In this document: positions 677 through 50,200 of the stretch, in pieces
Layout of the letters: each line of letters starts with the position of its first letter
Position numbering within the stretch: the first letter of the stretch is position 1
Virus record (IMG/VR): IMGVR_UViG_3300033513_000009
Span: 1 to 53,865 of that record
Direction: 5' to 3' (one strand)
Origin: a virus
Lineage: Duplodnaviria; Caudoviricetes
DNA: 53,865 nt
The notes under the pieces: generated by a model
Told to the model about the DNA's origin: nothing
What the model saw: only the letters and a program-made list of their open reading frames with translations
Databases searched by the model: none
Translations under genes and position numbers: made by a program

Positions 677-1105
677 TTAAGATTGGCTTGGGCGGTACAT
701 TGTTTCCATGAATTTATAGGTTTTGTTCTTGCCCTTATTCTCTATAAAATCAAATCGTTTATAGAATTCCTTTAATCTTGTTTTACTTCCTCCAAAATCA
801 GAAGAAGGAGAGAGCTTGACTGTATAGCCCATTTTGTCAGCATGTTCCACTAAATCTTCCATGAATTTAGTTCCAAGTCCCTTATTGCGTTCTTTCTTGG
901 GGATAATAATAGAGCTCAATGTAAGCATTTTGGTTGAATCATTTTGACCAATAAAAAAATCAATATTGGGATATTTGGCGGTAAGTATTTCATCAACCTG
1001 AGTTATATGGTCTTTACTAGCATTATCATTTCCTATCGGGGCTCCTTTTTGTAGTTCCGAAAGAGTATTAATTATTTTGTCAAGTTTTGCTATTAATAAT
1101 TCCAA
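677..1105 (-). CDS. GNAT-family acetyltransferase with shared leader
   Basis: Acetyl-CoA motif ERNKGLGTKFM and LKEFYKRFDF; N-terminus LDKIINTLSELQK-GAPIGNDNA. Confidence 0.8.
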   Translation of the reverse strand: MELLIAKLDKIINTLSELQKGAPIGNDNASKDHITQVDEILTAKYPNIDFFIGQNDSTKMLTLSSIIIPKKERNKGLGTKFMEDLVEHADKMGYTVKLSPSSDFGGSKTRLKEFYKRFDFIENKGKNKTYKFMETMYRPSQS

Positions 1106-1578
1106 AAAGATTTTCCACCGTCTGTACTGAATTTGATATTTTTAACTCCCAAATTTTCCAATACTTTTCTTTGACGATTCTTTAATTCATTTCTATCGCT
1201 TAATTCTGATGGTATGATACTTACCGCCCTTAAGCCATCAGAGGTTGCCCTAATAGAGAGATGCTGATATTTTCCCTTAAATTCGGAACTATTAGCTGTG
1301 AAATTAACCTCGTTTTCCCCATGTGTGCTGGATATTCCGCTTTTCCCTACATATACCGCATTGTGACCCATTAAACTAACAATAGTTGCTTTGTCAATAG
1401 GCTTCCCAATAATAGTACCTAATTTTTCTAGTGATTTTGAATCAATATTCTTGGTATTAACCACCTCACTTGCAATCACCGCTTCTTTCTTGGGATTTTT
1501 GCCACTACCAGCAGGATACCTGCCTGAACCTTCGCCGCCCTTTGCTAGTTCCAAATTATCTATTATTTTGTTTATCAT
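1093..1578 (-). CDS. Leader-bearing hypothetical (putative capsid cargo)
   Basis: MINKIIDNLELAK-GGEGSGRYPAGSG; overlaps neighbouring genes. Confidence 0.75.
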   Translation of the reverse strand: MINKIIDNLELAKGGEGSGRYPAGSGKNPKKEAVIASEVVNTKNIDSKSLEKLGTIIGKPIDKATIVSLMGHNAVYVGKSGISSTHGENEVNFTANSSEFKGKYQHLSIRATSDGLRAVSIIPSELSDRNELKNRQRKVLENLGVKNIKFSTDGGKSFWNY

Positions 1579-2318
1579 CTTGCTATCCCATAAAGTTCTT
1601 CTATCTTATCACTATCAACCCCATTTGCTTCGTAAAGCTGTTCAATCTCATCCCAGTTCTCATCCACATCATCCTGTAGTTCCGAATCGAATCTACACAT
1701 CCTAATTAATGTATCTATTTCTAGTTGCCCTGAAGCTATCTCATCTAACAAATCATCACCCGTATCAAATTTAGCAAGCATCCCAATTAATTTATTATTA
1801 GTTTCCTTGCGAGTATTATCATCCAAATTTTTGTTCTGCCATTTCAAAGCCTCAATTAGGTCTTTTTTGTCATTGGCATAGTTCTTTATTTTATCAAAAT
1901 TTCTATAAGTATCCCATTGTGTTAATAGGTCTTTTTTATCATTCCAGTCTTTTATATTTTTTAGTTTTGACTGAATATTATTGATTTCCTTGTTTACAAA
2001 TTCGGTAACATGTTTAATAGGGGCATTAGTGAATGCTAATTGCCCCATTTTTTTTGACCCATAGTTAGAAGCAAATGCTTGTTCTATTAATGAAGGTAAA
2101 CCACTTTGGTGAGCCATAACCCATTGATTACCATGGAAGGAATGACCCACTAAATCACCCTTATGAAGGAAGAAGATAATATCATCCAACTTCCTCATTT
2201 TGCGCGCTGAAGACAGGGCGATAGCGATAGCTTGCCTATGCGGATATTTTCCACTCCTCATAAGCTCTCTGATATTTTCAGAGATAACTTCCTTGCTACT
2301 ACCCTGTATCAACGGCAC
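1575..2318 (-). CDS. Putative head-associated protein with internal leader
   Basis: Phage-type N-terminus MPL..GSSKEVISENIRELM..QAIAIALS, then KLDDIIFFLHK-GDLVGHSFHGNQW. Confidence 0.7.
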   Translation of the reverse strand: MPLIQGSSKEVISENIRELMRSGKYPHRQAIAIALSSARKMRKLDDIIFFLHKGDLVGHSFHGNQWVMAHQSGLPSLIEQAFASNYGSKKMGQLAFTNAPIKHVTEFVNKEINNIQSKLKNIKDWNDKKDLLTQWDTYRNFDKIKNYANDKKDLIEALKWQNKNLDDNTRKETNNKLIGMLAKFDTGDDLLDEIASGQLEIDTLIRMCRFDSELQDDVDENWDEIEQLYEANGVDSDKIEELYGIAR

Positions 2319-3022
2319 TATCTAACGCGCCTAGCCCTTAGTATTCCAGCCCCGCCGATAGTACCAGCAGAGAACGCTGCACGACCAATCAGATATACTG
2401 TGGTTGTAGCCGCTAAACTCAATCTAACGGTTGGGGTATTCTGCGTGTAATTATCTGTATGGGTTGTCAATACAACAGGAATAGACATATATGTGTCCTG
2501 AGCCCCTAGTGTAGCAGTAGTTGTGGAAATACCAGCCGCCCAATCAGTTGTTGTCGCACCAGTGAGTACGAAATCAGCTATACCATCAACATCCCAGTCC
2601 CCCGCAGTCAGAGAAATGCTTGTTAAGTTAGCGGCAGTAGCTGTAGTTAGAGCTACTGGAGATGCTATCAGTACTTGAGCCGATACATACTCACCCAGCG
2701 TACCAGCAACGGCGTTATCATTAGTTCCCGTACCAACAATGAGTCCACTGGTTGAAGCTTCGGAACTAACAGAAGCACCATCACTAATAAGTCTAACTGT
2801 AGCGCCATTTGGAATAACTACCCCAGCGGCAGAAGCTGTTTTAACAGTAACAGTAAACCCACCTGCAACAACATTGTTTGTTACAAGAAATTCGTTAGGT
2901 ACTGATGGGACTATAACATTTATGTTAGCCGTTAAAACACCAGTAAACCTTAACCTATCATAAGCAAAATCACTTTCTGATACCGTGTAGCTTGTACCAG
3001 ACAAATAAATATTTGTATCCAT
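2318..3022 (-). CDS. Tail fibre-related structural protein
   Basis: Thr/Ala/Val-rich; LRFTGVLTANINVIVP module shared with the fibres at 7381-11254. Confidence 0.65.
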   Translation of the reverse strand: MDTNIYLSGTSYTVSESDFAYDRLRFTGVLTANINVIVPSVPNEFLVTNNVVAGGFTVTVKTASAAGVVIPNGATVRLISDGASVSSEASTSGLIVGTGTNDNAVAGTLGEYVSAQVLIASPVALTTATAANLTSISLTAGDWDVDGIADFVLTGATTTDWAAGISTTTATLGAQDTYMSIPVVLTTHTDNYTQNTPTVRLSLAATTTVYLIGRAAFSAGTIGGAGILRARRVR

Positions 3023-3069
3023 TTCTTTCCTTTTTTAATTTATCGTTCCTTCTTATTATAAGGGATAAA

Positions 3070-3774: not shown

Positions 3775-4247
3775 TATGCCTTATTAAATACTACTTTCTT
3801 CCCTTGAATTAAATCATCTAAATGAGACCTTATCTGATAATGGGGGTCATGGTAAACATCTTCAAGTTTTTCTTTATCTTTTTTCTCATCATAGCTCGTG
3901 CGGGTAAATCCCGGAGCTTCCGTTAGTCCTGCTCCCTCGTTGCCTAAATCAGTAGAGTACCTTAAATCACTGTTTGAACTATGTTGCTCCATAATATCTG
4001 CCATAATCTCATCATGGGATTTGCCCGATTCCATTGCTTCCTTAGCTTCTTGGATTCCTTCTGGGCTGAGTTGTAATTCAACTCTATTGCCGTATTCGTG
4101 AACAGAGGCATTGTTACTATTCCAGCTTTGAACTGGTTTGTCACCCCTTGCTTCTTTCTTTGGATTTTTGCCACTACCGGCGGGATAGCGACCCGAACCT
4201 ACTCCACCCTTTGCTAGTTCCAAATCAGCTATTATCTTGTTTATCAT
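3774..4247 (-). CDS. Leader-bearing hypothetical (putative capsid cargo)
   Basis: MINKIIADLELAK-GGVGSGRYPAGSGKNPKKEA, nearly identical to the first 33 aa of 1093-1578, with an unrelated C-terminus. Confidence 0.75.
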   Translation of the reverse strand: MINKIIADLELAKGGVGSGRYPAGSGKNPKKEARGDKPVQSWNSNNASVHEYGNRVELQLSPEGIQEAKEAMESGKSHDEIMADIMEQHSSNSDLRYSTDLGNEGAGLTEAPGFTRTSYDEKKDKEKLEDVYHDPHYQIRSHLDDLIQGKKVVFNKA

Positions 4248-19832: not shown

Positions 19833-20058
19833 ACCAAATAAATAAAGTTGCTATGATACCACCGATAATTGTCCATGTGGTATCCCATCCATCAAAAATA
19901 TGCCGCTTGGGATAGTGATAGTCATATAGTTCCTTCCCTAATCCGAGTAAAACAGCAGAAAGAAGCCCTATCTGTGGAGCTATCAGAAGCCCCACCAAAA
20001 GAGCGATTAAAAAACCAAATACAAAATGCCAGATTTTATCATATTGGAAGATTTTCAT
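19831..20058 (-). CDS. Small VanZ-like membrane protein
   Basis: DKIWHF, GKELYD, D..WT..GG pattern with TM segments. Confidence 0.6.
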   Translation of the reverse strand: MKIFQYDKIWHFVFGFLIALLVGLLIAPQIGLLSAVLLGLGKELYDYHYPKRHIFDGWDTTWTIIGGIIATLFIW

Positions 20059-20492
20059 TATTTTTCTGACCTAAGTTTTGTTGCCCAGTGCTGCATAACA
20101 TGACCATGAGCCTCCTTGAATTTGGGAGTTGTTATTCTGCCCTCATCGGCATTCTGAATAGTCTCCCTGATTGTATCAAGTTTTTTAGCGGCTTCCTCTG
20201 GGCTATTAGCTTCTTTTATTGCTTTTGAAGCATGTTCGTAGGCATTCATCATCCCATTATGTACTTCCTGCGCTTCTTTATAGCTTTGTTGCAAGGAATG
20301 AGGCACGTTCTCCTCTCCATGAGCGGCTATCATGCTTGAATTAAGTGCAGACATTGATGCTGAATGTCTTTGAGAATGTCTCTTTGTTTCCTTGGTTAAT
20401 TCTTCTTTTCTTATACCCCAGTGCATACCCTTCTTGCCATATTTAGCTATGACACTATTGGCGTGTTCCAGCCTCTTCATTAAATTGCTCAT
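20058..20492 (-). CDS. Leader-bearing hypothetical (putative capsid cargo)
   Basis: KRLEHANSVIAK-YGKKGMHWGIRK. Confidence 0.7.
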   Translation of the reverse strand: MSNLMKRLEHANSVIAKYGKKGMHWGIRKEELTKETKRHSQRHSASMSALNSSMIAAHGEENVPHSLQQSYKEAQEVHNGMMNAYEHASKAIKEANSPEEAAKKLDTIRETIQNADEGRITTPKFKEAHGHVMQHWATKLRSEK

Positions 20493-26125: not shown

Positions 26126-27631
26126 TTAATTTAAGCCTTTTGCAATTACATCCCTGAGCCTGAAACATTTCTCCCCAAGTTCCTGTTTGAGCATTGGATT
26201 TTGCTCCTTGTCAAACATCATCTTGGTGATTTCATATTCCTGCTCTACAGGAGATTTCTGCAATTCAACCATGCCACCATCCTTATCGAATGCCCTTGGA
26301 GCTGATTTAGCAACAGGGGAAGCAACGTTACTTTCGATTGCCTGTAGTCTTTTATTCATTTTCTCATCCAAATCCTTAACGAATTTAGCAAGGTCTATCG
26401 TAGCTTCAGCAACCTTGTTCACACTTTCCTGAACCTCTTCAGCCTTGGATACCGCCATTGCTGTCTTAGGTTTGATTACTGTACTTCCAGCAGAAGCCGC
26501 GTCCTGAGCAGCATTACTAACGCTTCTTTCTTTCCAAGCATTTATGCGCCCTTCACCAAAATACTTCTCCAGCTCTTCATCTGTCATATCCTCTTCGTCT
26601 TCAATTGGTTCAATATCCCTTGTTTCTTCGCCAGCTTTAAGATTTCTCTTAGCCCTGCCAGCGCCGAAAGATTTTGACATTTTGCCAGATTTGAGTTTGT
26701 ATTCGTTGCCCTCAACACCCATCTCGCCTTTTCTCATAGACTTAATAACAACAAAATCCTCGTCGTCCATAACGCCCATATCATCCTCATCCATATCATG
26801 ACCACCGCAATTAGCGCCCATGCCACATGCCTCATCGTGTATGATTTGGATTTTGTCAGCATAAGCTTTGGCAAGAGCATCACTCTTATGTACCAGTTCA
26901 CCATCTAGTCCCAGTGATTCTGATAGCGCTAGAAGGTAATCTACCTTAGTAACATCTTCATCCTCTGGTAAGCTAATATGACCAGCGGCAGTAGCAGCAC
27001 CAATTAACCCAAAAGCAGAGTTAATCAGGGGCTGTATATCACCTTTGGTTATATTTCCAGAGTCCATTCCTTCAGCAATAGCATCAAGGCTCTCAGCTAC
27101 TACTGCAAAGCTTTCAGCTTTTAGAATATCATCCATATTTTCCTCACCTGTATATAATTTAAAAATTGGTAATAGTGTAGCTTCAGGATTAGCACCCCTA
27201 TCAACTAACGATATTTCAGTTAGAAGTAGTTTTGTAATCGTGTTACCTACTTTCTCTAGTCTTTTACCGCCGATACTGTAGCCCGTAAACATGCCCATTT
27301 TGACCTTGTTTATAGCAGCGGGGTCAACGATAAAACTACCCACAAACAATCCCTTATCATCCATCAGCCATTTAATAGCTTTTCCAATTAAAGAAAACGG
27401 ATTGTGCATTTCTTTAATTGAAGGAGTTTTGATGTAGTCAGGAAGGGCATCCTCAATAGCTTTTTTTGCTACTTTTTCACCCTGCCTATCTAGTGTCTCG
27501 GTACTTGCATATCCTTCGACATACACCCCCTTAACACCATCAACCTCCATTTCCTTCCATACCTTCCCACCGTCAAATTTTCGTAGTTCTACGTCAAACT
27601 TAAACATAGCGGTATCCGCAAATTTCATCAT
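26126..27631 (-). CDS. Prohead protease (HK97-type) fused to scaffold
   Basis: VEGYAST..DRQGE, EMH, GYSIGG, EISLVDRGANPEA; acidic/helical C-terminal half. Confidence 0.9.
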   Translation of the reverse strand: MMKFADTAMFKFDVELRKFDGGKVWKEMEVDGVKGVYVEGYASTETLDRQGEKVAKKAIEDALPDYIKTPSIKEMHNPFSLIGKAIKWLMDDKGLFVGSFIVDPAAINKVKMGMFTGYSIGGKRLEKVGNTITKLLLTEISLVDRGANPEATLLPIFKLYTGEENMDDILKAESFAVVAESLDAIAEGMDSGNITKGDIQPLINSAFGLIGAATAAGHISLPEDEDVTKVDYLLALSESLGLDGELVHKSDALAKAYADKIQIIHDEACGMGANCGGHDMDEDDMGVMDDEDFVVIKSMRKGEMGVEGNEYKLKSGKMSKSFGAGRAKRNLKAGEETRDIEPIEDEEDMTDEELEKYFGEGRINAWKERSVSNAAQDAASAGSTVIKPKTAMAVSKAEEVQESVNKVAEATIDLAKFVKDLDEKMNKRLQAIESNVASPVAKSAPRAFDKDGGMVELQKSPVEQEYEITKMMFDKEQNPMLKQELGEKCFRLRDVIAKGLN

Positions 27632-28092
27632 TTTCTCACACCTCGTTTGGAAGCTTCTCCCATAAATTCCTTCTCGTGTCCGGTCTTTCCACCTTGATGA
27701 ACATGTGCCATACGAGCCCAGAATTGTCGTGACTTAGGTTTTTCCTTAGCCCACTTTCCAGTAGGATGTTTTTCCCTATGTAGAGCAGTAAGAGCAGCGA
27801 CAGTAGCTCCTATTTGTTTTTGAGCCTCCTTGTGTGCTGTTCCCTTTTCTTCTCTTGACAATCTATCTAGGTTGATTAATCGCTTAAGATGCTCCCTAAG
27901 AGCTCTTTCACCCCTGCGCTTTAATGCCTCATGAACCTGTTGGCGTTTCATACCAGTCATCTTAGTATGACCACCACCCGGCGCACTTCCACCCCAATGT
28001 CCCGGAACTCCAGCATGACCGTAATTTCCAGAAGAAGCCGTCCCTATTTTGAAAAGATTTTTCACCTCGTTCTCCATATGACTTCGTATCAT
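27628..28092 (-). CDS. Leader-bearing basic protein (putative capsid cargo)
   Basis: EVKNLFK-IGTASSGNYGHAGVPGHWGGSAPGG; between portal and protease. Confidence 0.7.
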   Translation of the reverse strand: MIRSHMENEVKNLFKIGTASSGNYGHAGVPGHWGGSAPGGGHTKMTGMKRQQVHEALKRRGERALREHLKRLINLDRLSREEKGTAHKEAQKQIGATVAALTALHREKHPTGKWAKEKPKSRQFWARMAHVHQGGKTGHEKEFMGEASKRGVRK

Positions 28093-28502: not shown

Positions 28503-29231
28503 TTACCCCACGTAAAACTTTTTCTCTCTTAGATAATTCTTCAAAACTTGAAGTGATTTTGAACCCTCATTCAAATCAAACTTCCCCTCAAAATCGGAGC
28601 CGTTTTTCTTCCACCAGTCACGCCCTTCTTTTGATGACATGATTTCATGAATATCATTCTTTCCTTCAAAACCCTTGGCACCTTCCTTATATGTAGGAAG
28701 TTTTTCAACATTATTATAACCAAGCCTAGCCCACGTATAATAACCATTGGCATCAGCACCCCTTCCTGCCATTGTGACTATCCTATCTACACCCATTTTC
28801 TTAGCATTAAGTACCTGATTAGCAAATACCCTTGTTCCGAATCCTTCTGGAGCACTATTATCTTTATAGAAAGATTTATTCTCAAGAACAATTTTTCCAT
28901 CTATCTTATACAATAACCTCTGTTGCACACCATCAAAATAAGGATGAGTAGCAACAAAACCTATTACCCCGCGAGAGCCCTCTAGTTTAATGGTAGTTCC
29001 TGAAGGAGCACCAATAAGACCAGCTATTTCCTCTTTATTTGGTTTCCTGCCAAATATCTCGTTCATAGCGTCTTCAACACCCTTCGCTTCTTCACTTGGT
29101 ATTTGTAGCTTTATGTTGCGATTATCAAAGAGCTCATGACCTGCATTATCGGTGTACTGATTACCATGAAAAGGATGACCTTCGAAGTCACCCTTTGCTA
29201 GTTCCAAGTTAAGTATTATTCTATCTATCAA
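28503..29231 (-). CDS. Leader-bearing GNAT-like protein
   Basis: MIDRIILNLELAK-GDFEGHPFHGNQY; GFGTRVF and NGYYTWARLGY GNAT-like motifs. Confidence 0.7.
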   Translation of the reverse strand: MIDRIILNLELAKGDFEGHPFHGNQYTDNAGHELFDNRNIKLQIPSEEAKGVEDAMNEIFGRKPNKEEIAGLIGAPSGTTIKLEGSRGVIGFVATHPYFDGVQQRLLYKIDGKIVLENKSFYKDNSAPEGFGTRVFANQVLNAKKMGVDRIVTMAGRGADANGYYTWARLGYNNVEKLPTYKEGAKGFEGKNDIHEIMSSKEGRDWWKKNGSDFEGKFDLNEGSKSLQVLKNYLREKKFYVG

Positions 29232-30663
29232 GACTAGCTATCACTCCATCTAAAACTTCCCACATTTCTTTTGATTTCCAAACTTTTTCAACCTGACCCT
29301 GTACTTCATCGGAAGGACTCTCTACCGTCTGTGGATTGGTTTTCTTTTTAGGACGAGGAGGATTACTCTTATCTGTCTCAGAACTACTTGAAGGAACCCC
29401 ACCAGCTTCCTCAGTAGGAGGAGTTGCGGTTTCTGGAAGTGGGTCTAAACCCTCTTCTGCCCTGATTTCATCAATGGTGAATACACCTGCCTGTAGATAC
29501 TGCATATTTTTTGAAACATAATTAGGGTCTTGAAGGTCTTTGCTAATCACCCAATCAAATTCAATATCATCATAACCAAAATCTTCCAGCACGATACCAT
29601 CAATTAAATCCTTTATTAGTTGTTTGTCTGTTTCCAGCCCTGCACCCGTAGCCTCTAAGTGTATCTGTTCAGCTACTGCCCTATTTGTATTAACAAGCGC
29701 CGTAGGAGAAACATAGAAAACAGCACATAATTGTTTAATCAATGTCTCCATCTGATTTAGGTCAAAAGTAGCGGGAGAAATCTGCTGAAAGCTCTTAAAG
29801 AAGTCTGGTAGGGGGATGAGTTGTCCAATTCTCTGGAAATCACCTTTATTCGTCTTATTATAGGCTTCAAGGAATCTAGCTAACTGGACAGGGTTGGTTC
29901 CCTGATTGGTGAACAAGAATCCACCCGGTATATTACCGTTGGTATAAATATTTATAGCGTGCATTTCCTGACGAATAAGCAGGTTTATATTAAAGGAAGC
30001 AATCTCGACAGGTGATTTGCCATACATGGAATCGGGTTGCGGATTCGAAACTATGTAAATCATCTCATCTCTTGTATACTGAGACTGAACTTGCCCCTGT
30101 ATTACTTGCTGGTAGGCTGGGTCTGGAGCTTCAGGAATGGTGAATAAGTCTGTTCCCAATATTTTAATAGTGGAGCCACTTACTACCCTTAGTCTATTCA
30201 GTTTATTTGCTATTGTTTTTTCTTTATAAAGATAGCTCGCATCATAGACCAGAATATCTTCCATAATACGAGATAACCAGTTATCCCATCTTGTATCTTT
30301 ATCGGGTCTTTTGAAAAATGCCGTCAATTCCTCGATTCGTTTTTCATCATTTGAATTGGGATTTTTTTTGTCTTTAGTTCTGAATTGCCATTGAAGAGCC
30401 TTTATATTATATTTACGATTAGAAATAAGAAGAGAGGTGATTGGCTCGGTTGACAGAAACTTTAATTGCTGGAAACTTGAGAGGACTTCCTTGCCCGATT
30501 TTCTCTGAGTAATATTGAAGTTATACCCAGTTGTAAAATCAGCACCACGAGGCTGTATATTATCATAAGTAGGCTTGAGTGGAAGACCAACACGGGGTAT
30601 CCCTCGTTGCTCAAACGCACTCATTTCCTCCAGTGATAATGGAACTATTCTTTCGTTAGACAA
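29221..30663 (-). CDS. Portal protein
   Basis: YGKSPVE, NGNIPGG, VFTIDEIRAEEGLDPL (HK97-type portal). Confidence 0.92.
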   Translation of the reverse strand: MSNERIVPLSLEEMSAFEQRGIPRVGLPLKPTYDNIQPRGADFTTGYNFNITQRKSGKEVLSSFQQLKFLSTEPITSLLISNRKYNIKALQWQFRTKDKKNPNSNDEKRIEELTAFFKRPDKDTRWDNWLSRIMEDILVYDASYLYKEKTIANKLNRLRVVSGSTIKILGTDLFTIPEAPDPAYQQVIQGQVQSQYTRDEMIYIVSNPQPDSMYGKSPVEIASFNINLLIRQEMHAINIYTNGNIPGGFLFTNQGTNPVQLARFLEAYNKTNKGDFQRIGQLIPLPDFFKSFQQISPATFDLNQMETLIKQLCAVFYVSPTALVNTNRAVAEQIHLEATGAGLETDKQLIKDLIDGIVLEDFGYDDIEFDWVISKDLQDPNYVSKNMQYLQAGVFTIDEIRAEEGLDPLPETATPPTEEAGGVPSSSSETDKSNPPRPKKKTNPQTVESPSDEVQGQVEKVWKSKEMWEVLDGVIASLDR

Positions 30664-41025: not shown

Positions 41026-41186
41026 TGGAAGAGAAAGCAGTGGCACAAATTCAAAAAGAACTAGACAAATTGGGGCTCAGATATGAAGATAAAGATAAGC
41101 CAGACTTCCCTATCGGAAAGGTGTGGGAGGCTGGAATAGACCTTTCTAGCGCTCAGGTTGAAGGACAAACCGTCTTTTTGGACTAA
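41025..41186 (+). CDS. 53-aa hypothetical (not in ORF track)
   Basis: MEEKAVAQIQKELDKLG...; TAATG coupling at both ends. Confidence 0.6.
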   Translation: MEEKAVAQIQKELDKLGLRYEDKDKPDFPIGKVWEAGIDLSSAQVEGQTVFLD

Positions 41187-42019
41187 TGGATAGGGTTAAA
41201 GAATTACAATCAATTGTAAAATCGTTTTTCGGACATGAGGGACGGGAGGGATTAGTAGGTGGAAGCTCTCCTCGAAACTTATTCAAAAATGAAGAAGAAG
41301 CGATTACGCATTTCAAAAATATGGGTATTGGTCTCGAATTTAAGTATGGCGACCGTCAGACTAAACTAAATAGAATTGAAATAGAGCAATTGAATGATGT
41401 TGCAAAAAGTGTCGCGCATATTACTTCAAAATATCCCCTAAAAAACAAGCATATGTTCGAGAATATAGTAATTGATAACACAATGCAGGAGAATCATAGG
41501 GGAATGTGGTCTGGTTCCTTCTATCCAAGTAGTCCCATGGATTCACATGGAAATATTCTTTTGAATATGAAAGCATTAATGGATTATAAGACAGGGGCTA
41601 ATATCGCAACCTCCCTCAAGGAAACCCTTATCCATGAATATGGTCATGCCCTACATCACGAATATGAGGCATTTAATTGGGATAATTTTGCTAATCGCCT
41701 ACCACTAGAGGGGCTCAAACCAGTATCATCTAAAACAGGAGCATTAATGTCGGATTTATATGATTTAAGGGAGACTATTAGTAAGGGAATACGGGGTGAT
41801 GATGAGTTTCAAAATCTTACTTCTGCCGACCTTCATTATTTCAAAGACCTGAAGCAATATGCACCTTCGGTTTATGCGCTAAATAATATCCATGAATACG
41901 TTGCAGAAAGCTTTTTGGCTAGGGAGAAAGGGCAGGAACTATCACCATTTAGTCAGAAAGTCCTAAAGGAAATTATAGACAGTAAACCTGATTGGAAAAT
42001 AAAGAGAGCGCTTTTTTAG
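41186..42019 (+). CDS. Leader-bearing zincin metallopeptidase
   Basis: VKELQSIVK-SFFGHEGREGLVGGSSPR; HEYGH; PSVYA..EYVAESF. Confidence 0.8.
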   Translation: MDRVKELQSIVKSFFGHEGREGLVGGSSPRNLFKNEEEAITHFKNMGIGLEFKYGDRQTKLNRIEIEQLNDVAKSVAHITSKYPLKNKHMFENIVIDNTMQENHRGMWSGSFYPSSPMDSHGNILLNMKALMDYKTGANIATSLKETLIHEYGHALHHEYEAFNWDNFANRLPLEGLKPVSSKTGALMSDLYDLRETISKGIRGDDEFQNLTSADLHYFKDLKQYAPSVYALNNIHEYVAESFLAREKGQELSPFSQKVLKEIIDSKPDWKIKRALF

Positions 42020-42973: not shown

Positions 42974-42990
42974 TGAGCTTCCTTCCTCTT

Positions 42991-43864: not shown

Positions 43865-45377
43865 TGTATTCTCCTAGAAATTCTTTTTGATAGTCTGTTA
43901 ATTTTTTATTAGTAAGGTGTGCCTGAACAAAACTTTCAGCAAAAAATTCATACTTATTAGTCATTCCGAACTTGCTTGGAATATCGTTCTGAACTTTTTC
44001 GTAACCAAAACCAAGCAAGGAGCCACCCGCCTTATTACTAATGGATTGCGCAAAGGCATCAAATCCCCTGTCATCTTTTCTCAAGTCCCTATAACTATAA
44101 GCATGACCCATTTCATGAGCGATAACATGTTGCATTGGTGCTGAATCTGTTTTTATCAAGTCAGACATTCCTAATCCACCCATCTGGTCATAAACAAAAG
44201 CTCTTTTATTAAAGATAATCTTTGCTGTCCCATCGGCATAGGGTTGGTAAATTGCCCCCGCATCACTTTTACCACCCAAGTCCTTTGTTGTAATATGAGT
44301 TAGTCCTTTTGGCATTCCGAATTTATCATGGAGGGCAAACAATGTTTCATTTATTTGATGTACCTGCTCCAATGTGGGAATATCCCCATAGTTCACCTTT
44401 ATGCCTAGCTTTTTTGTCGCCATCTTGCTTGCTTCGGCAACAGTAGTAGCTTCCCTTGGTAAACTCCCACCTCTTTCCCCCTGACGTCCCTTATGACCCT
44501 TGAAGGATTTTGCTAGTTCCAAATCAGATATTATTTTGTTTATTCCATAATCATGGTGGTCTAAATGATATTTGGTTTTATCAACAACAGGAATGCCCTT
44601 CTTATCGGCTTCAGCTTTTAGCTCTTTATAGGTCTCGTCATCAACTATTTTTCGGTCAACTTGAATATTCTTGATGTACTTATCGGCATTTTCCAGACCA
44701 TTATTGCCACCAATTTTAAGCTCCTCTTCGCCAGCAAATGTTCCAAGAAATTTATCTCCCACCTTGACTTTATGACCGTCTTCTTTTATTTTGCCCAAAT
44801 CTAAGTCAATACGCACACCTTTATCAGCGAAGGTATAAGGCTTGTTGCCCTCTCCGTACCACTGAACAGTTGCTATATCTGGGTGGTCAAAATCGGGATT
44901 AGTTGTTGTCGATAATCCAGATACCTCACCCTCCCCATAAAGTTGATTTTCCTGTAAAATATTAATTGCAGAAGAAGGGTCAGTAAAGTGATATGTTTTG
45001 GGGGCATTTTCGTCACCTCCCATAGCAAAGGGGTTGGGTTGTTTATTAAGAATCTCTAAATTACGGGATAATTCTTTAAATGATTTATCATCCCTAGCGT
45101 GAAGTTCGTTAAATCTGGTTGTCAGTTCTTCTTCAGAGATTTTGTCTCGTTCCGCTTTTAATTTATCCCAACCTTCCGATGATTTGATGTCATGGGCTTG
45201 TTTTAAAGCGCCCCTAAGTCGAAGAATATCTTGTGGTTTTAGGGTGCCACCATCTTTAACATAATCCATGTATTTTTGATGATTTTCCATGGTGATTCCT
45301 TTTGTCCACTGGTTTCCGTGAAATTCGTGACCTTCCTTGTCACCCTTCCTTAAGTTGTAAATTATTTTATCGAGCAT
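43854..45377 (-). CDS. Two-module leader polyprotein: ART-like domain plus zincin
   Basis: LDKIIYNLRK-GDKEGHEFHGNQW; YHFT/LSTT/GEEE; internal INKIISDLELAK-SFKGHKGR; HEMGH, EFFAESF. Confidence 0.75.
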   Translation of the reverse strand: MLDKIIYNLRKGDKEGHEFHGNQWTKGITMENHQKYMDYVKDGGTLKPQDILRLRGALKQAHDIKSSEGWDKLKAERDKISEEELTTRFNELHARDDKSFKELSRNLEILNKQPNPFAMGGDENAPKTYHFTDPSSAINILQENQLYGEGEVSGLSTTTNPDFDHPDIATVQWYGEGNKPYTFADKGVRIDLDLGKIKEDGHKVKVGDKFLGTFAGEEELKIGGNNGLENADKYIKNIQVDRKIVDDETYKELKAEADKKGIPVVDKTKYHLDHHDYGINKIISDLELAKSFKGHKGRQGERGGSLPREATTVAEASKMATKKLGIKVNYGDIPTLEQVHQINETLFALHDKFGMPKGLTHITTKDLGGKSDAGAIYQPYADGTAKIIFNKRAFVYDQMGGLGMSDLIKTDSAPMQHVIAHEMGHAYSYRDLRKDDRGFDAFAQSISNKAGGSLLGFGYEKVQNDIPSKFGMTNKYEFFAESFVQAHLTNKKLTDYQKEFLGEYSGL

Positions 45378-45579: not shown

Positions 45580-46349
45580 TTGGTTATCCTTTCCAACATT
45601 GTTTTTTGAAGTTCGCTGATTTTCATTCCGGTATGAGCTTGCACAAATGATTCAGCGACAAATTCATCGGAATCTTGCATTGCATATATGCTTGGAACAT
45701 CTGCTCTTTTTTTATATACTTGTGGTGTGAGTTCACCCTCTTCATTTTCAAGCCTATCCCTAAAAGCCCAAAAGTCATGATGATTAGGGTCATTATAATA
45801 GATACGTGTATTCCCTTCTTTATCCTTCCTCTGCCCAAAATGCTCTAGTCGATAATTGAAATCATAAGCATGTCCCAATTCATGAAGTGTAGAGACCTTG
45901 ACTTGACTAGCCCCAAGGGGCATTACCGTCATGTCCCCGAATATTTTATCCATTTGCTCAAAGGTTGAATTTCTTTCTATGCACTTTGAATTAATGACCA
46001 CTTTCCCCAAAAATGGAACACCTTTTGTTACTGCCTCAAGGGGATTACTCCTAAAAGCTCCTTGTACCCCAAAATCCATTTCCTCTACAACAAATTCTTT
46101 CAGACCATCAGGCTTCCCATATTTTGAAAAAATGTCTGACATAGTTCCTATTGCATGATTCAATCCTTCTATATTTGTTTTATTAGGGATGGTTGCTTTC
46201 ATCCCTAATTTCTTTTCAATAAATACGCGGGCTTCCTTTACATTTTTGGCTCCAGTAAAACCACTGATGTATTGATTGCCATGGAATGGATGACCCTTGA
46301 AATCACCCTTCCTTAAGTTGTAAATTATTTTATCTAGTTTTATTAGCAT
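45570..46349 (-). CDS. Leader-bearing zincin metallopeptidase
   Basis: KLDKIIYNLRK-GDFKGHPFHGNQY; HELGH; PSIYA..EFVAESF. Confidence 0.8.
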   Translation of the reverse strand: MLIKLDKIIYNLRKGDFKGHPFHGNQYISGFTGAKNVKEARVFIEKKLGMKATIPNKTNIEGLNHAIGTMSDIFSKYGKPDGLKEFVVEEMDFGVQGAFRSNPLEAVTKGVPFLGKVVINSKCIERNSTFEQMDKIFGDMTVMPLGASQVKVSTLHELGHAYDFNYRLEHFGQRKDKEGNTRIYYNDPNHHDFWAFRDRLENEEGELTPQVYKKRADVPSIYAMQDSDEFVAESFVQAHTGMKISELQKTMLERITKWK

Positions 46350-46418
46350 TATTTCTTGATTATAGCACGAATATTAGATTCAAATTTTTAATTGTAGTAA
46401 TCATGGTATCATTAGGGA

Positions 46419-46862
46419 ATGATAAACAAAATTATAGACATGTTGAAGCAGTCTACTCCTTTCTATTCCGATGAAACAAGAGGATATGATGATAATATTC
46501 GAAACATTGTCCGTAGTCCTGAATATAAAAAGGCACAAAAATTACTCATGAGTTACAAAAGTGATGTTATTGATGTTATGAATGGGCTTAGAGCCAATAT
46601 CGAAAACAAAGATAAAATCATGGAATATTACAAGGAGCTAAAAGCAATTGATGACTCCGATGTACGAGAAGCAATTGACAGGGTAGCTACCGTCTATGAT
46701 GGACATGGGATAGGTAGTAAAGCCCGTTCGAAACTACAAGATGATTTACAGCGTATTAAGAACCATGCTTTTGCTATTGCTGACGAAATTAAAGGTAAGA
46801 AGATTCAGCGTAACTACACAAGCGGAATTATAGTAGTGCCTAGTAGTGAAAACCATTCTTAA
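46419..46862 (+). CDS. Leader-bearing hypothetical
   Basis: MINKIIDMLK start; TGGTATCAT 6 nt upstream. Confidence 0.65.
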   Translation: MINKIIDMLKQSTPFYSDETRGYDDNIRNIVRSPEYKKAQKLLMSYKSDVIDVMNGLRANIENKDKIMEYYKELKAIDDSDVREAIDRVATVYDGHGIGSKARSKLQDDLQRIKNHAFAIADEIKGKKIQRNYTSGIIVVPSSENHS

Positions 46863-47399: not shown

Positions 47400-47480
47400 A
47401 CTTCCTCCTAAAACTATATTATACCATTATGGGAAGAAGAAGTCAAGATTTAATTGTAATATCAAATGTACCAACAATAG

Positions 47481-47921
47481 TTATGCCTCATAATCACCAT
47501 CATATCTATGACCTTGTTGATTAGCAGTATCCTTTAATTGACTATGGAGAGGAGTACCGTGATAAGCATCAATAAATTTATCAACATTCCTGCTTAATGT
47601 ATGCTTGAATTGATTTCCATCCCTACCTTCCTTGTATTTAATAACCATATCCTTAATAGCCTCATGTGGAGTCGCGTCCCCCATTTTAACTTCATTAGCT
47701 GTTTTTTCGGCATAGGTATGACCAGCCTCCGTTTCCAATGAAGCATTGTATGTAGTTGGTCTTAGGTCTTCATTCTTAAGTCTATTAGATACCGTTGCTC
47801 TCTTCTCCCCAAAATGCGCACTAAGTGAATGAGCTATTTGCCTATATTGATTCCCGTGAAACTCATGACCTTCTTTGTCACCTTTTGCTAGTTCTAATTT
47901 ATCTATTATTTTATTTATCAT
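47481..47921 (-). CDS. Leader-bearing hypothetical (putative capsid cargo)
   Basis: MINKIIDKLELAK-GDKEGHEFHGNQY; own TTGACA(47963-58)-17-TATAAT(47940-35). Confidence 0.75.
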   Translation of the reverse strand: MINKIIDKLELAKGDKEGHEFHGNQYRQIAHSLSAHFGEKRATVSNRLKNEDLRPTTYNASLETEAGHTYAEKTANEVKMGDATPHEAIKDMVIKYKEGRDGNQFKHTLSRNVDKFIDAYHGTPLHSQLKDTANQQGHRYDGDYEA

Positions 47922-47966
47922 TTTACTATCCTTTATTATACCATATTTATCTTGATTTGTCAAAAA

Positions 47967-48679: not shown

Positions 48680-48703
48680 TCGTCCATCACCTCCCCCGCT
48701 TTC

Positions 48704-49222
48704 CTATAGGTGTGCATCATGGTTCGATAATACTCCCTTTGTAGCTAGATTGCCAATATGTTCTATGGAAGCTTCTTTATCTATGAAATAATTTGATTTA
48801 TGTGTTCCCCATTTCATTCCACCCCTTCTCATTCCCCAGTGCATTCCCTCGACACCATATTTGCGTATATTTGATGCTATTTTGTCTAATTTATCCATTT
48901 GTGTGTAATCCATATTCTCAATATTATCTATGTGTTCATTTAGGGTATCAATATAAGACCTAGCAAAATCATCATCGCCTACGTCTTTTGTTGCTTCGGC
49001 TAGTTTATCTTGTAGTTCTTGGTGATTAGTGGAATCATGGGCGTGCATTAGTACTGTCTCATGGGCTTCCGCCTCCCCCAAAGCCTTTTGTTTGTCGGCA
49101 CCCTCTGAATTATCCGCTAGTTCACGGGCTTTGTATTGTAGTTCCGAAACTTTTCCCTGCCCGTCGGTATTTTTGTAATTGGTGATACCCCATCGCATCC
49201 CCTTCACCCCATACTTTCTCAT
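48704..49222 (-). CDS. Leader-repeat hypothetical
   Basis: MRK-YGVKGMRWG and internal KLDKIASNIRK-YGVEGMHWG. Confidence 0.7.
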   Translation of the reverse strand: MRKYGVKGMRWGITNYKNTDGQGKVSELQYKARELADNSEGADKQKALGEAEAHETVLMHAHDSTNHQELQDKLAEATKDVGDDDFARSYIDTLNEHIDNIENMDYTQMDKLDKIASNIRKYGVEGMHWGMRRGGMKWGTHKSNYFIDKEASIEHIGNLATKGVLSNHDAHL

Positions 49223-49488
49223 CTTGACCTCAAATTTTGTATTATACGTTCCAGCTTTTTATCAAATGATTGATTCATATCTTCACTATGCTTTAGGATT
49301 GTTTTCTTAAAATCCTCGTCACCATCGAGTACATCATAGAGACTGTTTTGAAGTTCCTCGTGGCTGTTGGCTTCTTTGGCAAACATGAGGACTGTTTTGT
49401 GTGCCTCTGCTTCACTTGGATTATGGGATTTTCGAATAAGCTCAACTAATTGAACCCTTCCTTCCTTACAGAGATAGTTTTTTATCAT
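49219..49488 (-). CDS. Paralog of the 48704-49222 core with C-terminal leader helix
   Basis: EAEAHKTVLM..SHEELQ vs EAEAHETVLM..NHQELQ; ends KLERIIQNLRSR. Confidence 0.65.
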   Translation of the reverse strand: MIKNYLCKEGRVQLVELIRKSHNPSEAEAHKTVLMFAKEANSHEELQNSLYDVLDGDEDFKKTILKHSEDMNQSFDKKLERIIQNLRSR

Positions 49489-49627
49489 AATTTTCGTTCC
49501 TTTAGTTTTTCAACCGATTCTTTTAGTTCGGAGACATAGTTGTTTAGTTTTTTAATTTCGTCAGTAAGAAAAACGAAATCACCCTTATTAGGGGTGTTTT
49601 TCTTAATTATCTTCCTTACCGCTGCCA

Positions 49628-50200
49628 TTACTGTATCTCTGAAAGCCTATCCAATCCTTCTTGGTCAAATAGTCTAGTTATACCTTTGTGCTCTTTTAGA
49701 ACGGCTTTATATTCCCTCATGGCTTCTTTGTTGGGACGACCATAATCATCATATTTGTCGTGGTTATAGTTCTCGGCATAATCCTCGAAAGAACCGGGGT
49801 CAGAAACAGACATAGATATTGAGCTCAAAATGTCATAAGTCGAAGGTTTCTCTCCCTTATTGGTAGCATTTATACTATTTCCCCAGTTAAAAGAATAGGA
49901 ATCTCCATCTTTGTTTTTTAGGGTAACTTTATACACATCTCTAGTGACACCCTTCTTCTTATCACTCGGAAAGTGTGACTTATTGCCCATGTGCAAGACA
50001 TGGAGAGAAGCTCCTGTATCATTCAGGAATCGTTGTGCATGTGTGTGATATTCATTTGAAGGGTCATGTTTTAATTCAACTTTTCCTCCACCATTTCCAG
50101 TGTATTGATTGCCCCTGAATGGATGTCCCTTTCTCTCACCGGAGCCAGCTCCGCCTTTTAGTATTTCGATAACTCTATTTAGTTTTTGTAATTTGTTCAT
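49628..50200 (-). CDS. Leader-bearing hypothetical (putative capsid cargo)
   Basis: KLNRVIEILK-GGAGSGERKGHPFRGNQY; GAGG RBS before ATG 50200. Confidence 0.75.
   Translation of the reverse strand: MNKLQKLNRVIEILKGGAGSGERKGHPFRGNQYTGNGGGKVELKHDPSNEYHTHAQRFLNDTGASLHVLHMGNKSHFPSDKKKGVTRDVYKVTLKNKDGDSYSFNWGNSINATNKGEKPSTYDILSSISMSVSDPGSFEDYAENYNHDKYDDYGRPNKEAMREYKAVLKEHKGITRLFDQEGLDRLSEIQ

What the first reader, a model, noticed from the sequence alone, without database searches (positions are those of the whole stretch)
677..50200. Dispersed family of ~15 unrelated effectors sharing a leader: candidate modular capsid-loading system
Seen: genes at 677, 1093, 1575, 3774, 20058, 27628, 28503, 40525, 41186, 43854 (twice), 45570, 46419, 47481, 48704 and 49628 start with, or contain, an amphipathic helix (consensus [LI][DN][KR]II..L) ending in hydrophobic-x-K (LELAK, NLRK, ELQK, FLHK, EILK, SIVK, NFIK, VIAK, NIRK). 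Most then have a Gly/His peptide, followed by different bodies: 2 GNATs, 3 zincins, an ART-like domain, Acb1 and unknowns. They lie on both strands, inside the head, tail and lysis operons and in the accessory region. Established: T4 internal proteins use a short N-terminal capsid-targeting sequence removed by the prohead protease and are ejected with the DNA. Inference: this leader is a portable packaging tag that lets the phage load and inject an interchangeable set of anti-defence or host-takeover enzymes.
Basis: partly seen in the sequence, partly recalled or inferred. Interest (0 to 1): 0.95.

Follow-up and report, generated by a model that had tools for sequence, protein, structure and literature searches.

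The report
Shared address tag on phage cargo
About ten otherwise unrelated genes of this uncultured phage start with the same short helix followed by a glycine/histidine motif, and that motif marks module boundaries in head-associated proteins of thousands of other phages, so it is probably an address and processing label for proteins loaded into the capsid.

Summary
Nine leaders in eight genes (1093, 1575, 3774, 28503, 43854 twice, 45570, 47481, 49628) are supported statistically. 41186 and 27628 join through a variant Gly/His motif. 677 and 46419 carry only part of the helix. 20058 and 48704 carry a different motif (Pfam DUF7211), and Acb1 (40525) is not supported. Apart from three zincin paralogues, the bodies are unrelated.

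The helix is private to this phage lineage. The widely conserved part is the Gly/His peptide, hydrophobic-x-K-G-D-x-x-G-H-x-F-x-G-N-Q-[Y/W]. A profile of it hits 2,577 protein clusters. It lies just behind the start of small genes, or repeats up to nine times inside giant polyvalent proteins. It also sits exactly at the junction after MuF, portal and prohead-protease domains. Genes next to motif genes are enriched in portal, MuF, protease and terminase.

Best reading (about 0.5): a two-part capsid-cargo tag, a lineage-specific helix plus a universal junction, cut after the Lys by the HK97-type prohead protease. HK97 itself cuts after F-N-K. Packaging and cleavage are inferred, not shown. My literature searches found no description of the motif.

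The parts
1483..1578 (-). Gene 1093-1578: N-terminal helix (1540-1578) plus the G-G-x-G-S-G type junction (1483-1539); body of unknown family
2121..2192 (-). Gene 1575-2318: internal helix (2160-2192) plus type A junction G-D-x-x-G-H-x-F-x-G-N-Q-W (2121-2159). A phrog_2423 mini-domain (aa 1-43) precedes it.
4152..4247 (-). Gene 3774-4247: helix (4209-4247) plus G-G-x-G-S-G type junction (4152-4208), nearly identical to that of gene 1093; the body is different
29154..29231 (-). Gene 28503-29231, directly after the portal gene: helix (29193-29231) plus type A junction (29154-29192); GNAT-like body
45306..45377 (-). Gene 43854-45407, N-terminal tag: helix (45345-45377) plus type A junction (45306-45344)
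44463..44543 (-). Gene 43854-45407, internal tag between domain 1 and the zincin: helix (44508-44543) plus type C junction G-H-x-G-R-x-G-x-x-G-G-S (44463-44507)
46269..46349 (-). Gene 45570-46349 (zincin): helix (46308-46349) plus type A junction (46269-46307). AF2 models the tag as flexible: helix 5-13, pLDDT below 50 for residues 10-30.
47844..47921 (-). Gene 47481-47921: helix (47883-47921) plus type A junction (47844-47882); a perfect sigma-70-like promoter lies at 47963-47935
50102..50200 (-). Gene 49628-50200: helix (50156-50200) plus G-G-x-G-S-G and type A junction (50102-50155); the body matches phrog_4273
41186..41266 (+). Gene 41186-42019 (zincin): weaker helix (41186-41221) plus type C junction (41222-41266)
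27985..28032 (-). Gene 27628-28092, just upstream of the protease gene: type C junction near the N-terminus; helix not demonstrable
1046..1105 (-). Gene 677-1105 (GNAT-like): partial leader ending in E-L-Q-K-G, with no Gly/His motif
46419..46448 (+). Gene 46419-46862: its first 7 residues are identical to the leader start of three other genes; no K-G end and no junction
26126..27631 (-). Prohead protease (Peptidase_S78, aa 34-152) fused to a scaffold-like region; the candidate processing enzyme. It carries hydrophobic-x-K-G-D at aa 193-198 and E-L-Q-K-S at aa 456-460.
29221..30663 (-). Portal protein (PF04860, E 6.3e-22)
24611..26113 (-). Major capsid protein. No Pfam hit. It is 35% identical over 96% of its length to a Brevundimonas phage protein annotated as hypothetical; a more distant Alicyclobacillus phage hit is annotated as major head protein.
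20058..20492 (-). DUF7211-type (G-M-x-W-G) protein; not shown to belong to the leader family
48704..49222 (-). Protein with three G-M-x-W-G motifs (PF23847, 30.2 bits); not shown to belong to the leader family

Best explanation
These genes encode cargo proteins of the phage head interior, made as precursors with a detachable two-part N-terminal tag. Part 1 is a 10-15 residue amphipathic helix that is specific to this phage lineage and ends in hydrophobic-x-Lys. Part 2 is a Gly/His junction peptide, mainly G-D-x-x-G-H-x-F-x-G-N-Q-[Y/W], with two variants: G-G-x-G-S-G... and G-H-x-G-R-x-G-x-x-G-G-S. Proposed mechanism, all inferred: the tag brings the protein into the assembling procapsid. There the S78 (HK97 gp4-type) prohead protease cuts after the Lys and frees the enzyme, so that it can leave with the DNA. 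In many other phages the same junction separates the anchor domains (MuF, portal, protease) and the successive effector domains of polyvalent proteins. This phage therefore carries a 'split polyvalent protein': about ten separately encoded cargo modules, each with its own short anchor. What is shown: the shared module, its wide distribution, its position at module boundaries and its head-gene context. What is inferred: packaging, the cleavage site, the enzyme and ejection.
For: (1) The module is shared by unrelated bodies. (2) A junction profile hits 2,577 clusters at E <= 1e-3, 541 at E <= 1e-10 and 111 at E <= 1e-30, with up to 9 copies per protein. (3) In 197 distinct motif ORFs from 120 viral loci, 44 carry 2-7 copies, with a median spacing of 247 aa. 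In 63 ORFs (plus 21 ambiguous) the first motif lies within about 45 aa of the start, behind short leaders that recur within a contig. (4) Pfam census of 103 of the 197 motif ORFs: MuF 6, XkdF protease 5, Mu-like protease 1, S78 1, DUF2213 1, portal 1, plus ART, Zeta toxin, NUDIX, kinase and GNAT domains. (5) The motif lies directly behind the MuF domain and in front of divergent C-termini, behind Portal_Mu, behind protease domains and behind DUF6496. (6) Among 123 same-strand neighbours: Portal_Mu 9, MuF 9, Phage_portal 7, P23-45 portal barrel 6, XkdF 4, terminase 4, Mu-like protease 2. (7) In 10 of 10 aligned XkdF-type proteases the last conserved residue is a Lys; in 4 of the 10 the junction follows it directly, and in the other 6 the sequences diverge there. 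(8) Four ORFs start exactly at M-G-D-x-x-G-H, which places a natural N-terminus at the proposed K|G boundary. (9) The position given in passages of PMC12749128 for the HK97 capsid-protein cut puts it after F-N-K, in front of S. HK97 gp4 is the archetype of the window's protease family. (10) AF2 models the tag of 45570 as a flexible extension (pLDDT below 50 for residues 10-30) on a confident body (pLDDT 82-90). (11) Precedents seen in passages of PMC9024508: the T4 IPIII capsid-targeting sequence, and the 30 N-terminal residues of P1 DarB. A 2,811-aa polyvalent protein was detected in phi24B virions (passage of 10.64898/2026.04.10.717836).
Against: There is no virion, proteomic or cleavage data for this phage or for any motif-bearing phage that I could find. 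Among cultured phages, the one tblastn search turned up only Xanthomonas phage Rb1. About fifteen conserved residues is far more than known prohead-protease sites need. The motif also occurs in phages with different protease families. The window's own protease-scaffold and capsid protein lack the Gly/His motif, and so do 119 of the 119 closest protease homologues. Six ORFs end 1-5 residues after the motif (a seventh runs off its locus), and four ORFs start at it. That fits an autonomous docking peptide better than a mere cut site. In the Portal_Mu fusions the K-G-D part is missing. Several leader genes lie in an accessory region with perfect sigma-70-type promoter matches, so they may be expressed early. 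The hydrophobic-x-K-[GS] sites outside the leaders number 7, which is what chance gives (6.9 +/- 2.8 overall).
Confidence: 0.5

Rival explanations
1. Docking peptide without cleavage. The G-H-x-F-x-G-N-Q core is itself the capsid-interior address. It binds a conserved site on the HK97-fold shell, the scaffold or the protease, much as encapsulin cargo-loading peptides or the C-terminal tail of the HK97 protease do. It stays on the cargo, and multiple copies tether polyvalent proteins.
For: The core is invariant (G, H, F, G, N and Q are invariant in 146 of 146 aligned sites, though these sites were selected by matching that pattern) and includes aromatic, His, Asn and Gln residues of the kind seen in binding motifs. 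It is independent of position: N-terminal, internal, or at the very C-terminus in 6 ORFs, and 4 ORFs begin with it. It occurs without K-G-D in portal fusions. It is present in phages with several portal and protease families.
Against: It is redundant in proteins that are already capsid-bound (MuF, portal). Its position exactly at domain boundaries, with the sequence diverging right after the conserved Lys, suggests processing. No binding partner was identified.
Confidence: 0.2
2. The junctions are cut by the phage's own zincin metallopeptidases (three tagged paralogues here), inside the capsid or after injection, as Iyer et al. proposed in general terms for the metallopeptidase domains of polyvalent proteins.
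For: Three HExxH proteins with a downstream conserved Glu are encoded here. Their fold matches to zincins are weak but consistent (E about 0.02, TM 0.33-0.43). Section 8 of PMC5512222 proposes autoproteolytic release of domains.
Against: No zincin family appears among the 23 families listed for the 103 motif ORFs, or among the first 25 of 44 families shown for the 123 neighbours; undetected zincins like those in the window are possible. AF2 does not place the tag on the zincin body. Protease-scaffold fusions that have the motif carry no zincin.
Confidence: 0.1
3. The proteins are not packaged. They act in the cytoplasm, and the tag serves another shared purpose, such as binding a common hub, timed degradation or activation.
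For: Perfect or near-perfect sigma-70-like promoter matches lie directly upstream of 47481 and 43854, and -10-like sequences are visible upstream of 45570 and 49628, in an accessory region. T4 Acb1 is, from my recall, a cytoplasmic enzyme. No direct evidence for packaging exists.
Against: The motif is fused to MuF, portal and prohead protease and is flanked by head genes in other phages. One tagged gene occupies the post-portal slot (28503), and several sit inside the tail and lysis operons.
Confidence: 0.12
4. The shared 5' ends are only the footprint of recent duplication or gene conversion: a cassette-exchange site like the pre-toxin motifs of polymorphic toxins, with no role at the protein level.
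For: Identical codons are used for the last five helix residues in five copies, and a block of about 30 identical bases is shared by 45570 and the N-terminal tag of 43854. P0054 and P0057 have nearly identical MuF parts and diverge right after the motif.
Against: The six window copies of the core use different synonymous codons. The peptide is conserved across 2,577 clusters that are less than 50% identical to each other. Recombination and a protein-level function are not mutually exclusive.
Confidence: 0.05
5. A double-glycine-type export leader: an amphipathic helix plus G-G, cut by a C39-type peptidase.
For: Three window tags and several tags in other loci end in K-G-G followed by x-G-S-G.
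Against: In 87% of sites the residue after G is Asp, not Gly, Ala or Ser. No C39 or ABC transporter family appeared in any Pfam output. The context is head genes.
Confidence: 0.03

Closest known systems
T4 capsid-targeting sequence of internal proteins (IPI-III, Alt) and the N-terminal packaging signal of P1 DarB
   Same: A short N-terminal peptide of 10-30 residues on anti-defence or host-takeover enzymes. In T4 the prohead protease removes it. It is portable to foreign cargo (passages of PMC9024508).
   Different: There is no sequence likeness. The T4 site, as I recall it, is L/I-x-E, whereas here the helix ends in hydrophobic-x-K. Here a second, strongly conserved Gly/His motif follows, and that motif is shared by thousands of unrelated phages and also occurs internally and in multiple copies.
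Polyvalent proteins of phages and conjugative elements (Iyer et al. 2017, PMC5512222)
   Same: The same domain repertoire (zincin, GNAT, ART, NUDIX, kinases, ParB, MuF) and the same link to portal-terminase packaging. The GNAT of 677 matches positions 2689-2795 of the 3,925-position profile phrog_10691. The junction motif repeats inside such giant proteins.
   Different: Here the domains are encoded as about ten separate genes, each with its own tag; only 43854 has two domains. My term searches of the paper and my reading of section 8 found no linker or junction motif described.
MuF polymorphic toxins (Jamet et al. 2017, PMC5576092)
   Same: A conserved N-terminal head-associated part, then a variable C-terminal effector. 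The junction motif sits exactly at that boundary in MuF proteins P0054, P0057 and P0063.
   Different: There is no MuF domain in the window. A term search of the paper found no mention of a conserved motif, linker or cleavage.
Maturation sites of assemblin-like prohead proteases (the HK97 gp4 cut in gp5; herpesvirus R and M sites)
   Same: Hydrophobic-x-K in front of a small residue, as in HK97 F-N-K|S. In XkdF- and Mu-type protease-scaffold fusions the motif lies right behind the protease domain and again near the C-terminus. From my recall, this matches the placement of the R and M sites.
   Different: Known sites span 3-4 residues. Here about 15 residues are conserved, and the window's own protease-scaffold lacks the Gly/His core.
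Encapsulin cargo-loading peptides
   Same: Short, Gly-rich, conserved peptides at a terminus or in linkers that direct unrelated enzymes into an HK97-fold shell (from my recall).
   Different: No sequence likeness was tested or claimed. Here the shell is a phage capsid and the cargo must be released.
Pfam DUF7211 (PF23847)
   Same: A 25-position Gly/Trp motif family. 48704 passes the cut-off (30.2 against 27 bits).
   Different: It is a different motif. It does not occur in any of 197 motif ORFs or 203 motif proteins. No papers mention it.

Membership tests
T4-type capsid-targeting sequence / internal proteins | A short N-terminal peptide that is sufficient to load a foreign protein into the prohead | not testable with these tools
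   Needs a tag-reporter packaging assay.
T4-type capsid-targeting sequence / internal proteins | The peptide ends in the T4 gp21 site L/I-x-E (recalled consensus) | tested here: not met
   All nine robust leaders end in hydrophobic-x-K.
T4-type capsid-targeting sequence / internal proteins | A prohead protease is encoded by the phage | tested here: met
   Peptidase_S78, E 1.5e-5, 25.7 bits (cut-off 21), aa 34-152 of ORF 26126-27631; 202 homologues at E <= 1e-5.
T4-type capsid-targeting sequence / internal proteins | The protein is present in the virion and ejected with the DNA | not testable with these tools
   No isolate and no proteome.
Polyvalent proteins (Iyer et al. 2017) | Two or more effector domains in one polypeptide | tested here: not met
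   Only 43854-45407 has two domains. The other tagged genes have a single domain, so the set works like a split polyvalent protein but is not one.
Polyvalent proteins (Iyer et al. 2017) | Domains drawn from the polyvalent repertoire (zincin metallopeptidase, GNAT, ART and others) | tested here: inconclusive
   Zincin: HExxH plus Glu, with weak fold hits. GNAT: sub-threshold Pfam hit and phrog_10691 at E 3.9e-24. ART: a weak lead only.
Polyvalent proteins (Iyer et al. 2017) | Encoded with a portal-terminase packaging system | tested here: met
   TerL, TerS, portal, protease and capsid genes are in the window.
MuF polymorphic toxins | An N-terminal MuF (PF04233) domain | tested here: not met
   0 matches at E <= 1 in the record. 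The record is about 46% complete, but the post-portal slot holds a tagged GNAT-like gene.
Gly/His junction motif family (defined here from 230 non-window sites) | The core G-H-x-[FY]-x-G-N-Q preceded by G-[DE]-x-x | tested here: met
   5 of the 6 window type A sites have G-D-x-x-G-H; 49628 has the G-G-x-G-S-G spacer instead. Two window proteins were retrieved by the profile, at E 4.3e-6 and 1.3e-5 (P0061 and P0065).
Pfam DUF7211 (PF23847) | Score over the gathering cut-off of 27 bits | tested here: met
   48704-49222 scores 30.2 bits; 20058-20492 scores 16.9 bits, below the cut-off.
Double-glycine leader / C39 system | G-G, G-A or G-S at positions -2 and -1, and a C39 peptidase or ABC exporter | tested here: not met
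   Asp follows the Gly in 87% of 230 sites. No C39 or ABC family appeared in any Pfam output; not every window ORF was scanned.

The most novel reading that the evidence does not exclude
The peptide hydrophobic-x-K-G-D-x-x-G-H-x-F-x-G-N-Q-[Y/W] is a near-universal address label for capsid-interior cargo in tailed phages, readable from sequence alone. It would be a docking and processing signal recognised by a conserved feature of the HK97-fold procapsid or its protease, comparable to encapsulin targeting peptides. It would let anyone read the injected proteome of thousands of uncultured phages directly from their genomes, and would offer a general handle for loading foreign proteins into phage heads. 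The lineage-specific helices in front of it (at least three recurrent families) would then be a second address layer that co-evolves with each phage's scaffold.
Probability: 0.35. Interest if true: 0.9.

Novelty: new variant of a known kind. Interest (0 to 1): 0.78.

Why it matters
Which phage proteins travel inside the capsid and enter the cell with the DNA is known for only a handful of model phages (T4, P1, P22, N4, jumbo phages). It cannot currently be predicted from sequence. If this junction motif is the label for such cargo, packaged anti-defence and host-takeover enzymes become identifiable in metagenomes: 2,577 clusters already match. The long-predicted processing of polyvalent proteins would also gain a concrete candidate site, and a compact portable tag would be available for protein delivery by phages. 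The window is a useful natural case because the cargo set is split into single-domain genes. Each of these could be tested on its own.

Tried and rejected
Close relatives. Megablast of the head module against cultured phages found nothing. tblastn of the capsid protein gave at best 35% identity. tblastn of the zincin 45570 gave nothing. The search for related loci with the capsid protein found no relative. The word-indexed homologue search for 45570 returned only the protein itself.

Family searches for the bodies. NCBIfam gave nothing above chance for 10 tagged proteins. A PDB sequence search with 45570 gave nothing below E 0.29.

Complex prediction. The protease-scaffold (alignment A4) with the 44-residue junction peptide (alignment A2) scored 0.00 in two runs, the controls were not run, and the verdict was 'no answer'. 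I use it neither for nor against binding.

AF2 of an XkdF-type protease with its junction (A6, 10 rows) had a mean pLDDT of 57.3 and a junction below 50, so it is uninformative.

Helix HMM against other phages: no hit of 6 bits or more among 19,371 ORF segments. By eye, the window's helix resembles one of the recurrent leader families, but that likeness is not supported statistically and I do not claim it.

Leader-like C-termini of the portal, the scaffold and ORF 11790-12398 score at noise level (2.3 bits or not listed). I rejected them as evidence.

Hydrophobic-x-K-[GS] sites in the scaffold (aa 193, 456) and the capsid protein (aa 25) are suggestive by position, but their number equals the chance expectation.

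The bacterial-genome scan gave 100 hits, of which only 19 have the in-frame G-[DE]-x-x-G-H context. My own estimate of chance hits for this pattern in 596 Gb is about 70, so most of these hits are noise.

Literature. There were no papers with the motif strings (6 strings) and none with DUF7211. Term searches inside PMC5512222 and PMC5576092 found no linker or junction motif. Keyword searches found no description either.

Full report
WHAT THE WINDOW IS. The window is an entire IMG/VR virus record of 53,865 bases, classed as linear, with a CheckV completeness estimate of 46%. GC content is about 0.39, and nearly all genes lie on the minus strand. It has no close cultured relative: megablast of the head module found nothing, and the capsid protein is at best 35% identical to a protein of a Brevundimonas phage.

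Pfam and PHROGs give the following late-gene map:
- small terminase, 47967-48440
- large terminase with intein-like insertions, 30941-34501
- portal, 29221-30663
- S78 prohead protease fused to a scaffold-like region, 26126-27631
- capsid protein, 24611-26113
- major tail protein, 21036-22301
- tape measure protein, 16213-19131
- tail fibre proteins
- endolysin, 3070-3774

The genes in the finding are scattered through this map and through an accessory region at 39-50 kb.

- The peptide G-H-x-[FY]-x-G-N-Q occurs six times in the six-frame translation. Each time it lies inside a listed ORF, just behind the helix.
- The back-translated DNA pattern hits 0 forward and 6 reverse; the reversed control pattern hits nothing.
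- The six copies use different synonymous codons, so selection acts on the protein.
- A helix-only HMM built from these six picks out the two genes that have a different junction (1093 at 13.6 bits, 3774 at 8.8 bits). All noise scores 4.5 bits or less.
- With eight training helices, the internal copy in 43854 reaches 8.8 bits, against best scores of 2.8-8.6 in 20 shuffles.
- 41186 and 27628 carry a second junction type, G-H-x-G-x-x-G-x-x-G-G-S. In the alignment of the three zincin paralogues, this type lines up with the main type.
- 677 and 46419 share only the first 6-7 helix residues and are partial at best.
- 20058 and 48704 carry the separate Pfam DUF7211 motif. That motif never co-occurs with the main junction elsewhere: 0 of 197 ORFs and 0 of 203 proteins.
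- Acb1 (40525) is a true Acb1 (E 6.5e-33), but I cannot show that its N-terminus is a leader.
- The bodies are unrelated apart from the three HExxH proteins.
- Strong ribosome-binding sites and ATG starts place the helix at the very N-terminus in 3774, 47481 and 49628.

THE CONSERVED PART IS THE GLY/HIS PEPTIDE, NOT THE HELIX. Translation gave 304 sites in 197 distinct ORFs.

The logo of 230 distinct non-window sites reads as follows: aliphatic residue (71%), x, K (68%), G (93%), D (87%), hydrophobic, x, G, H, P/E, F, R/H, G, N, Q, Y/W/H, T, x, G, x, G. Nothing further upstream is conserved.

The window's helix HMM finds nothing in those 120 loci. A profile of the junction hits 2,577 representative clusters at E <= 1e-3 among 1.84 billion proteins. 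The hits include proteins of up to 3,461 residues with up to nine copies.

The same DNA pattern in 596 Gb of bacterial genomes gave 100 hits, and only 19 of them are in the right peptide context. Among cultured phages I found only Xanthomonas phage Rb1. The motif therefore belongs mainly to uncultured phages. The variant G-G-x-G-S-G-N-[FH]-G-H-x-G-R-P-G-x-x-G-G-S occurs alongside the main motif in 1 of 197 ORFs and 6 of 203 proteins (one of the six is the window's own 43854, P0061).

WHERE THE MOTIF SITS.
- 63 of 197 ORFs (plus 21 ambiguous) have it within about 45 residues of the start. It follows short leaders that recur among paralogous genes of one contig and fall into a few families across contigs. 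113 ORFs have it internally.
- 44 ORFs have 2-7 copies, with a median spacing of 247 residues.
- Of 103 ORFs scanned with Pfam, 6 contain MuF, 8 contain a prohead-protease family (XkdF 5, Mu-like 1, S78 1, DUF2213 1) and 1 contains a portal. The others carry ART, Zeta toxin, NUDIX, kinase and GNAT domains, or no known domain. The profile search gave the same picture.
- In ten proteins examined residue by residue, the motif lies directly behind the MuF domain and in front of divergent C-termini. P0054 and P0057 share nearly the same MuF part and then differ completely. The motif also lies behind the Portal_Mu domain, behind the XkdF and Mu-like protease domains, and behind a DUF6496 mini-domain. 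The window's gene 1575 has that last arrangement (phrog_2423).
- Same-strand neighbours of motif ORFs (123 scanned) are rich in portal (Portal_Mu 9, Phage_portal 7, P23-45 barrel 6, T4-type 1), MuF (9), proteases (XkdF 4, Mu-like 2, DUF2213 1) and terminase (4).

This is the main support for a link to the head interior.

HOW IT MAY WORK. I favour a two-part tag. The helix is a lineage-specific anchor, and the junction is the universal recognition element, with a cut between the Lys and the Gly.

Evidence for a cut:
- The motif marks module boundaries.
- In an alignment of ten XkdF-type proteases the Lys is invariant and is the last conserved residue. The junction follows it in four of them, and the other six diverge there.
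- Four ORFs begin exactly at M-G-D-x-x-G-H.
- Passages of PMC12749128 describe a 102-residue scaffold domain on the HK97 capsid protein. That places the HK97 maturation cut after residue 103, and the sequence there reads F-N-K before S. This is the same hydrophobic-x-K pattern, and HK97 gp4 is the archetype of the window's S78 protease. The exact HK97 site is partly from my recall. A passage of PMC9024508 speaks of 104 residues.
- AF2 models the tag of 45570 as a short helix and a disordered stretch on a confident body, as expected for an accessible propeptide.

Evidence against a mere cut site:
- About fifteen residues are conserved.
- Six ORFs end 1-5 residues after the motif.
- The Portal_Mu fusions lack K-G-D.
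- Neither the window's protease-scaffold and capsid protein nor any of 119 protease homologues carries the Gly/His core.

These points favour the rival reading, in which the core is a docking peptide. A combined model, with the core docking and the Lys-Gly bond being cut, fits everything, but it is inference. The one complex prediction that I was allowed gave no verdict.

WHAT SPEAKS AGAINST PACKAGING. There are no virion data. The region from 39 to 54 kb holds five perfect and five 11-of-12 sigma-70-type promoter matches. One lies just upstream of 47481 and one upstream of 43854. The total count of promoter-like sites, however, is not above shuffles (52 against 48.1 +/- 6.4). These genes may therefore be transcribed early. 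The small terminase gene lies in the same region, so this point is not decisive.

COMPARISON WITH WHAT IS KNOWN. N-terminal capsid-targeting signals on anti-defence proteins are established for T4 IPIII and P1 DarB (passages of PMC9024508). Polyvalent proteins and their predicted processing are described in PMC5512222 (section 8 read in full). A polyvalent protein was found in phi24B virions (passage). MuF toxins are described in PMC5576092; I saw the search listing and ran a term search with no hits.

My searches found no description of the junction motif: six motif strings gave 0 papers, and the term searches of the two key papers are. I therefore class the finding as a new variant of a known kind: a split polyvalent cargo set with a two-part tag whose second part is a widespread, apparently undescribed motif.

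VERDICT. My confidence that the tag marks capsid-interior cargo is about 0.6-0.7, summed over the cleavage and docking readings. My confidence in the specific model of cleavage after the Lys by the prohead protease is 0.5. Interest is 0.78.

Noticed in passing
window 30941-34501 (-): The large terminase ORF is 1,186 aa long and appears to carry two intein-like insertions: Intein_splicing at aa 179-530 (E 2.2e-20) and a Hint_2 start at aa 828-863. The RNaseH-like terminase domain lies between them at aa 684-827.
   Followed up: no
window 20489-20986 (-); other loci in alignment A3: A ferritin-like gene (phrog_16594, E 1.5e-21) sits between the major tail gene and the DUF7211 gene, with overlapping stop and start codons. 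Ferritin (PF00210) is also found in 4 of 123 neighbours of motif genes in other phage contigs. It may be another head cargo, reminiscent of encapsulin ferritin cargo.
   Followed up: no
window 40525-41025 (+), 39363-40454 (-), 37885-38571 (-): An Acb1 anti-CBASS gene (PF23474, E 6.5e-33) lies next to a tagged zincin. A CCA-adding tRNA nucleotidyltransferase (phrog_2244, E 1.2e-60) and a second nucleotidyltransferase-like gene are nearby.
   Followed up: partly
window 47967-48440 (-) versus 30941-34501 (-): The small terminase gene (phrog_309, E 4.3e-13) is separated from the large terminase gene by about 13 kb of accessory genes, many of them tagged.
   Followed up: no
window 39000-53865: Five perfect (12 of 12) and five 11-of-12 sigma-70-type promoter matches, most with an extended -10 TG, several as divergent pairs around 43.3 kb and 50.2 kb. 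This suggests a host with canonical sigma-70 promoters and many independent transcription units.
   Followed up: partly
window 1540-1554, 4209-4223, 29193-29207, 44508-44522, 47883-47897; 45345-45377 versus 46308-46340: The last five helix codons are identical or nearly identical at the DNA level in five copies. A block of about 30 identical bases is shared by the leaders of 45570 and of the N-terminal tag of 43854. This points to recent duplication or gene conversion among leaders, whereas the Gly/His core codons differ.
   Followed up: partly
window 1575-2318 (-), aa 1-43; P0028, P0031, L014, L054, L079: A small conserved mini-domain (phrog_2423, E 8.2e-16; called DUF6496 by Pfam in P0028 and P0031) lies directly in front of the junction motif in this gene, and likewise in XkdF-type protease-scaffold fusions of other phages. 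Its function is unknown.
   Followed up: partly
window 29221-29260 (-), 26126-26170 (-), 11790-11830 (-): The C-termini of the portal, the protease-scaffold and ORF 11790-12398 look like the leader helix by eye, but they score at noise level. If the likeness is real, the leaders might mimic a scaffold or portal tail.
   Followed up: partly
window 26126-27631 (-), aa 193-198 and 456-460; 24611-26113 (-), aa 25-29; 22304-23146 (-), aa 258-262: Sites of the form hydrophobic-x-K-[GS] lie at positions where maturation cuts would make sense: behind the protease domain, 41 residues from the scaffold's C-terminus, and near the capsid protein's N-terminus. Their number equals the chance expectation.
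   Followed up: partly
window 28503-29231 and 43854-45407: The ESM Atlas holds these proteins starting at my residue 9 and residue 11. Automatic gene callers therefore place the start inside or behind the leader for some of these genes, which would hide the leader from protein databases.
   Followed up: no
L026, L082, L097, L037, L070, L084, L075 (viral contigs): Other phages carry tandem arrays of 3-5 small genes, each with the same short leader plus junction. At least three recurrent leader families exist, and more than one family can occur in a single contig.
   Followed up: partly
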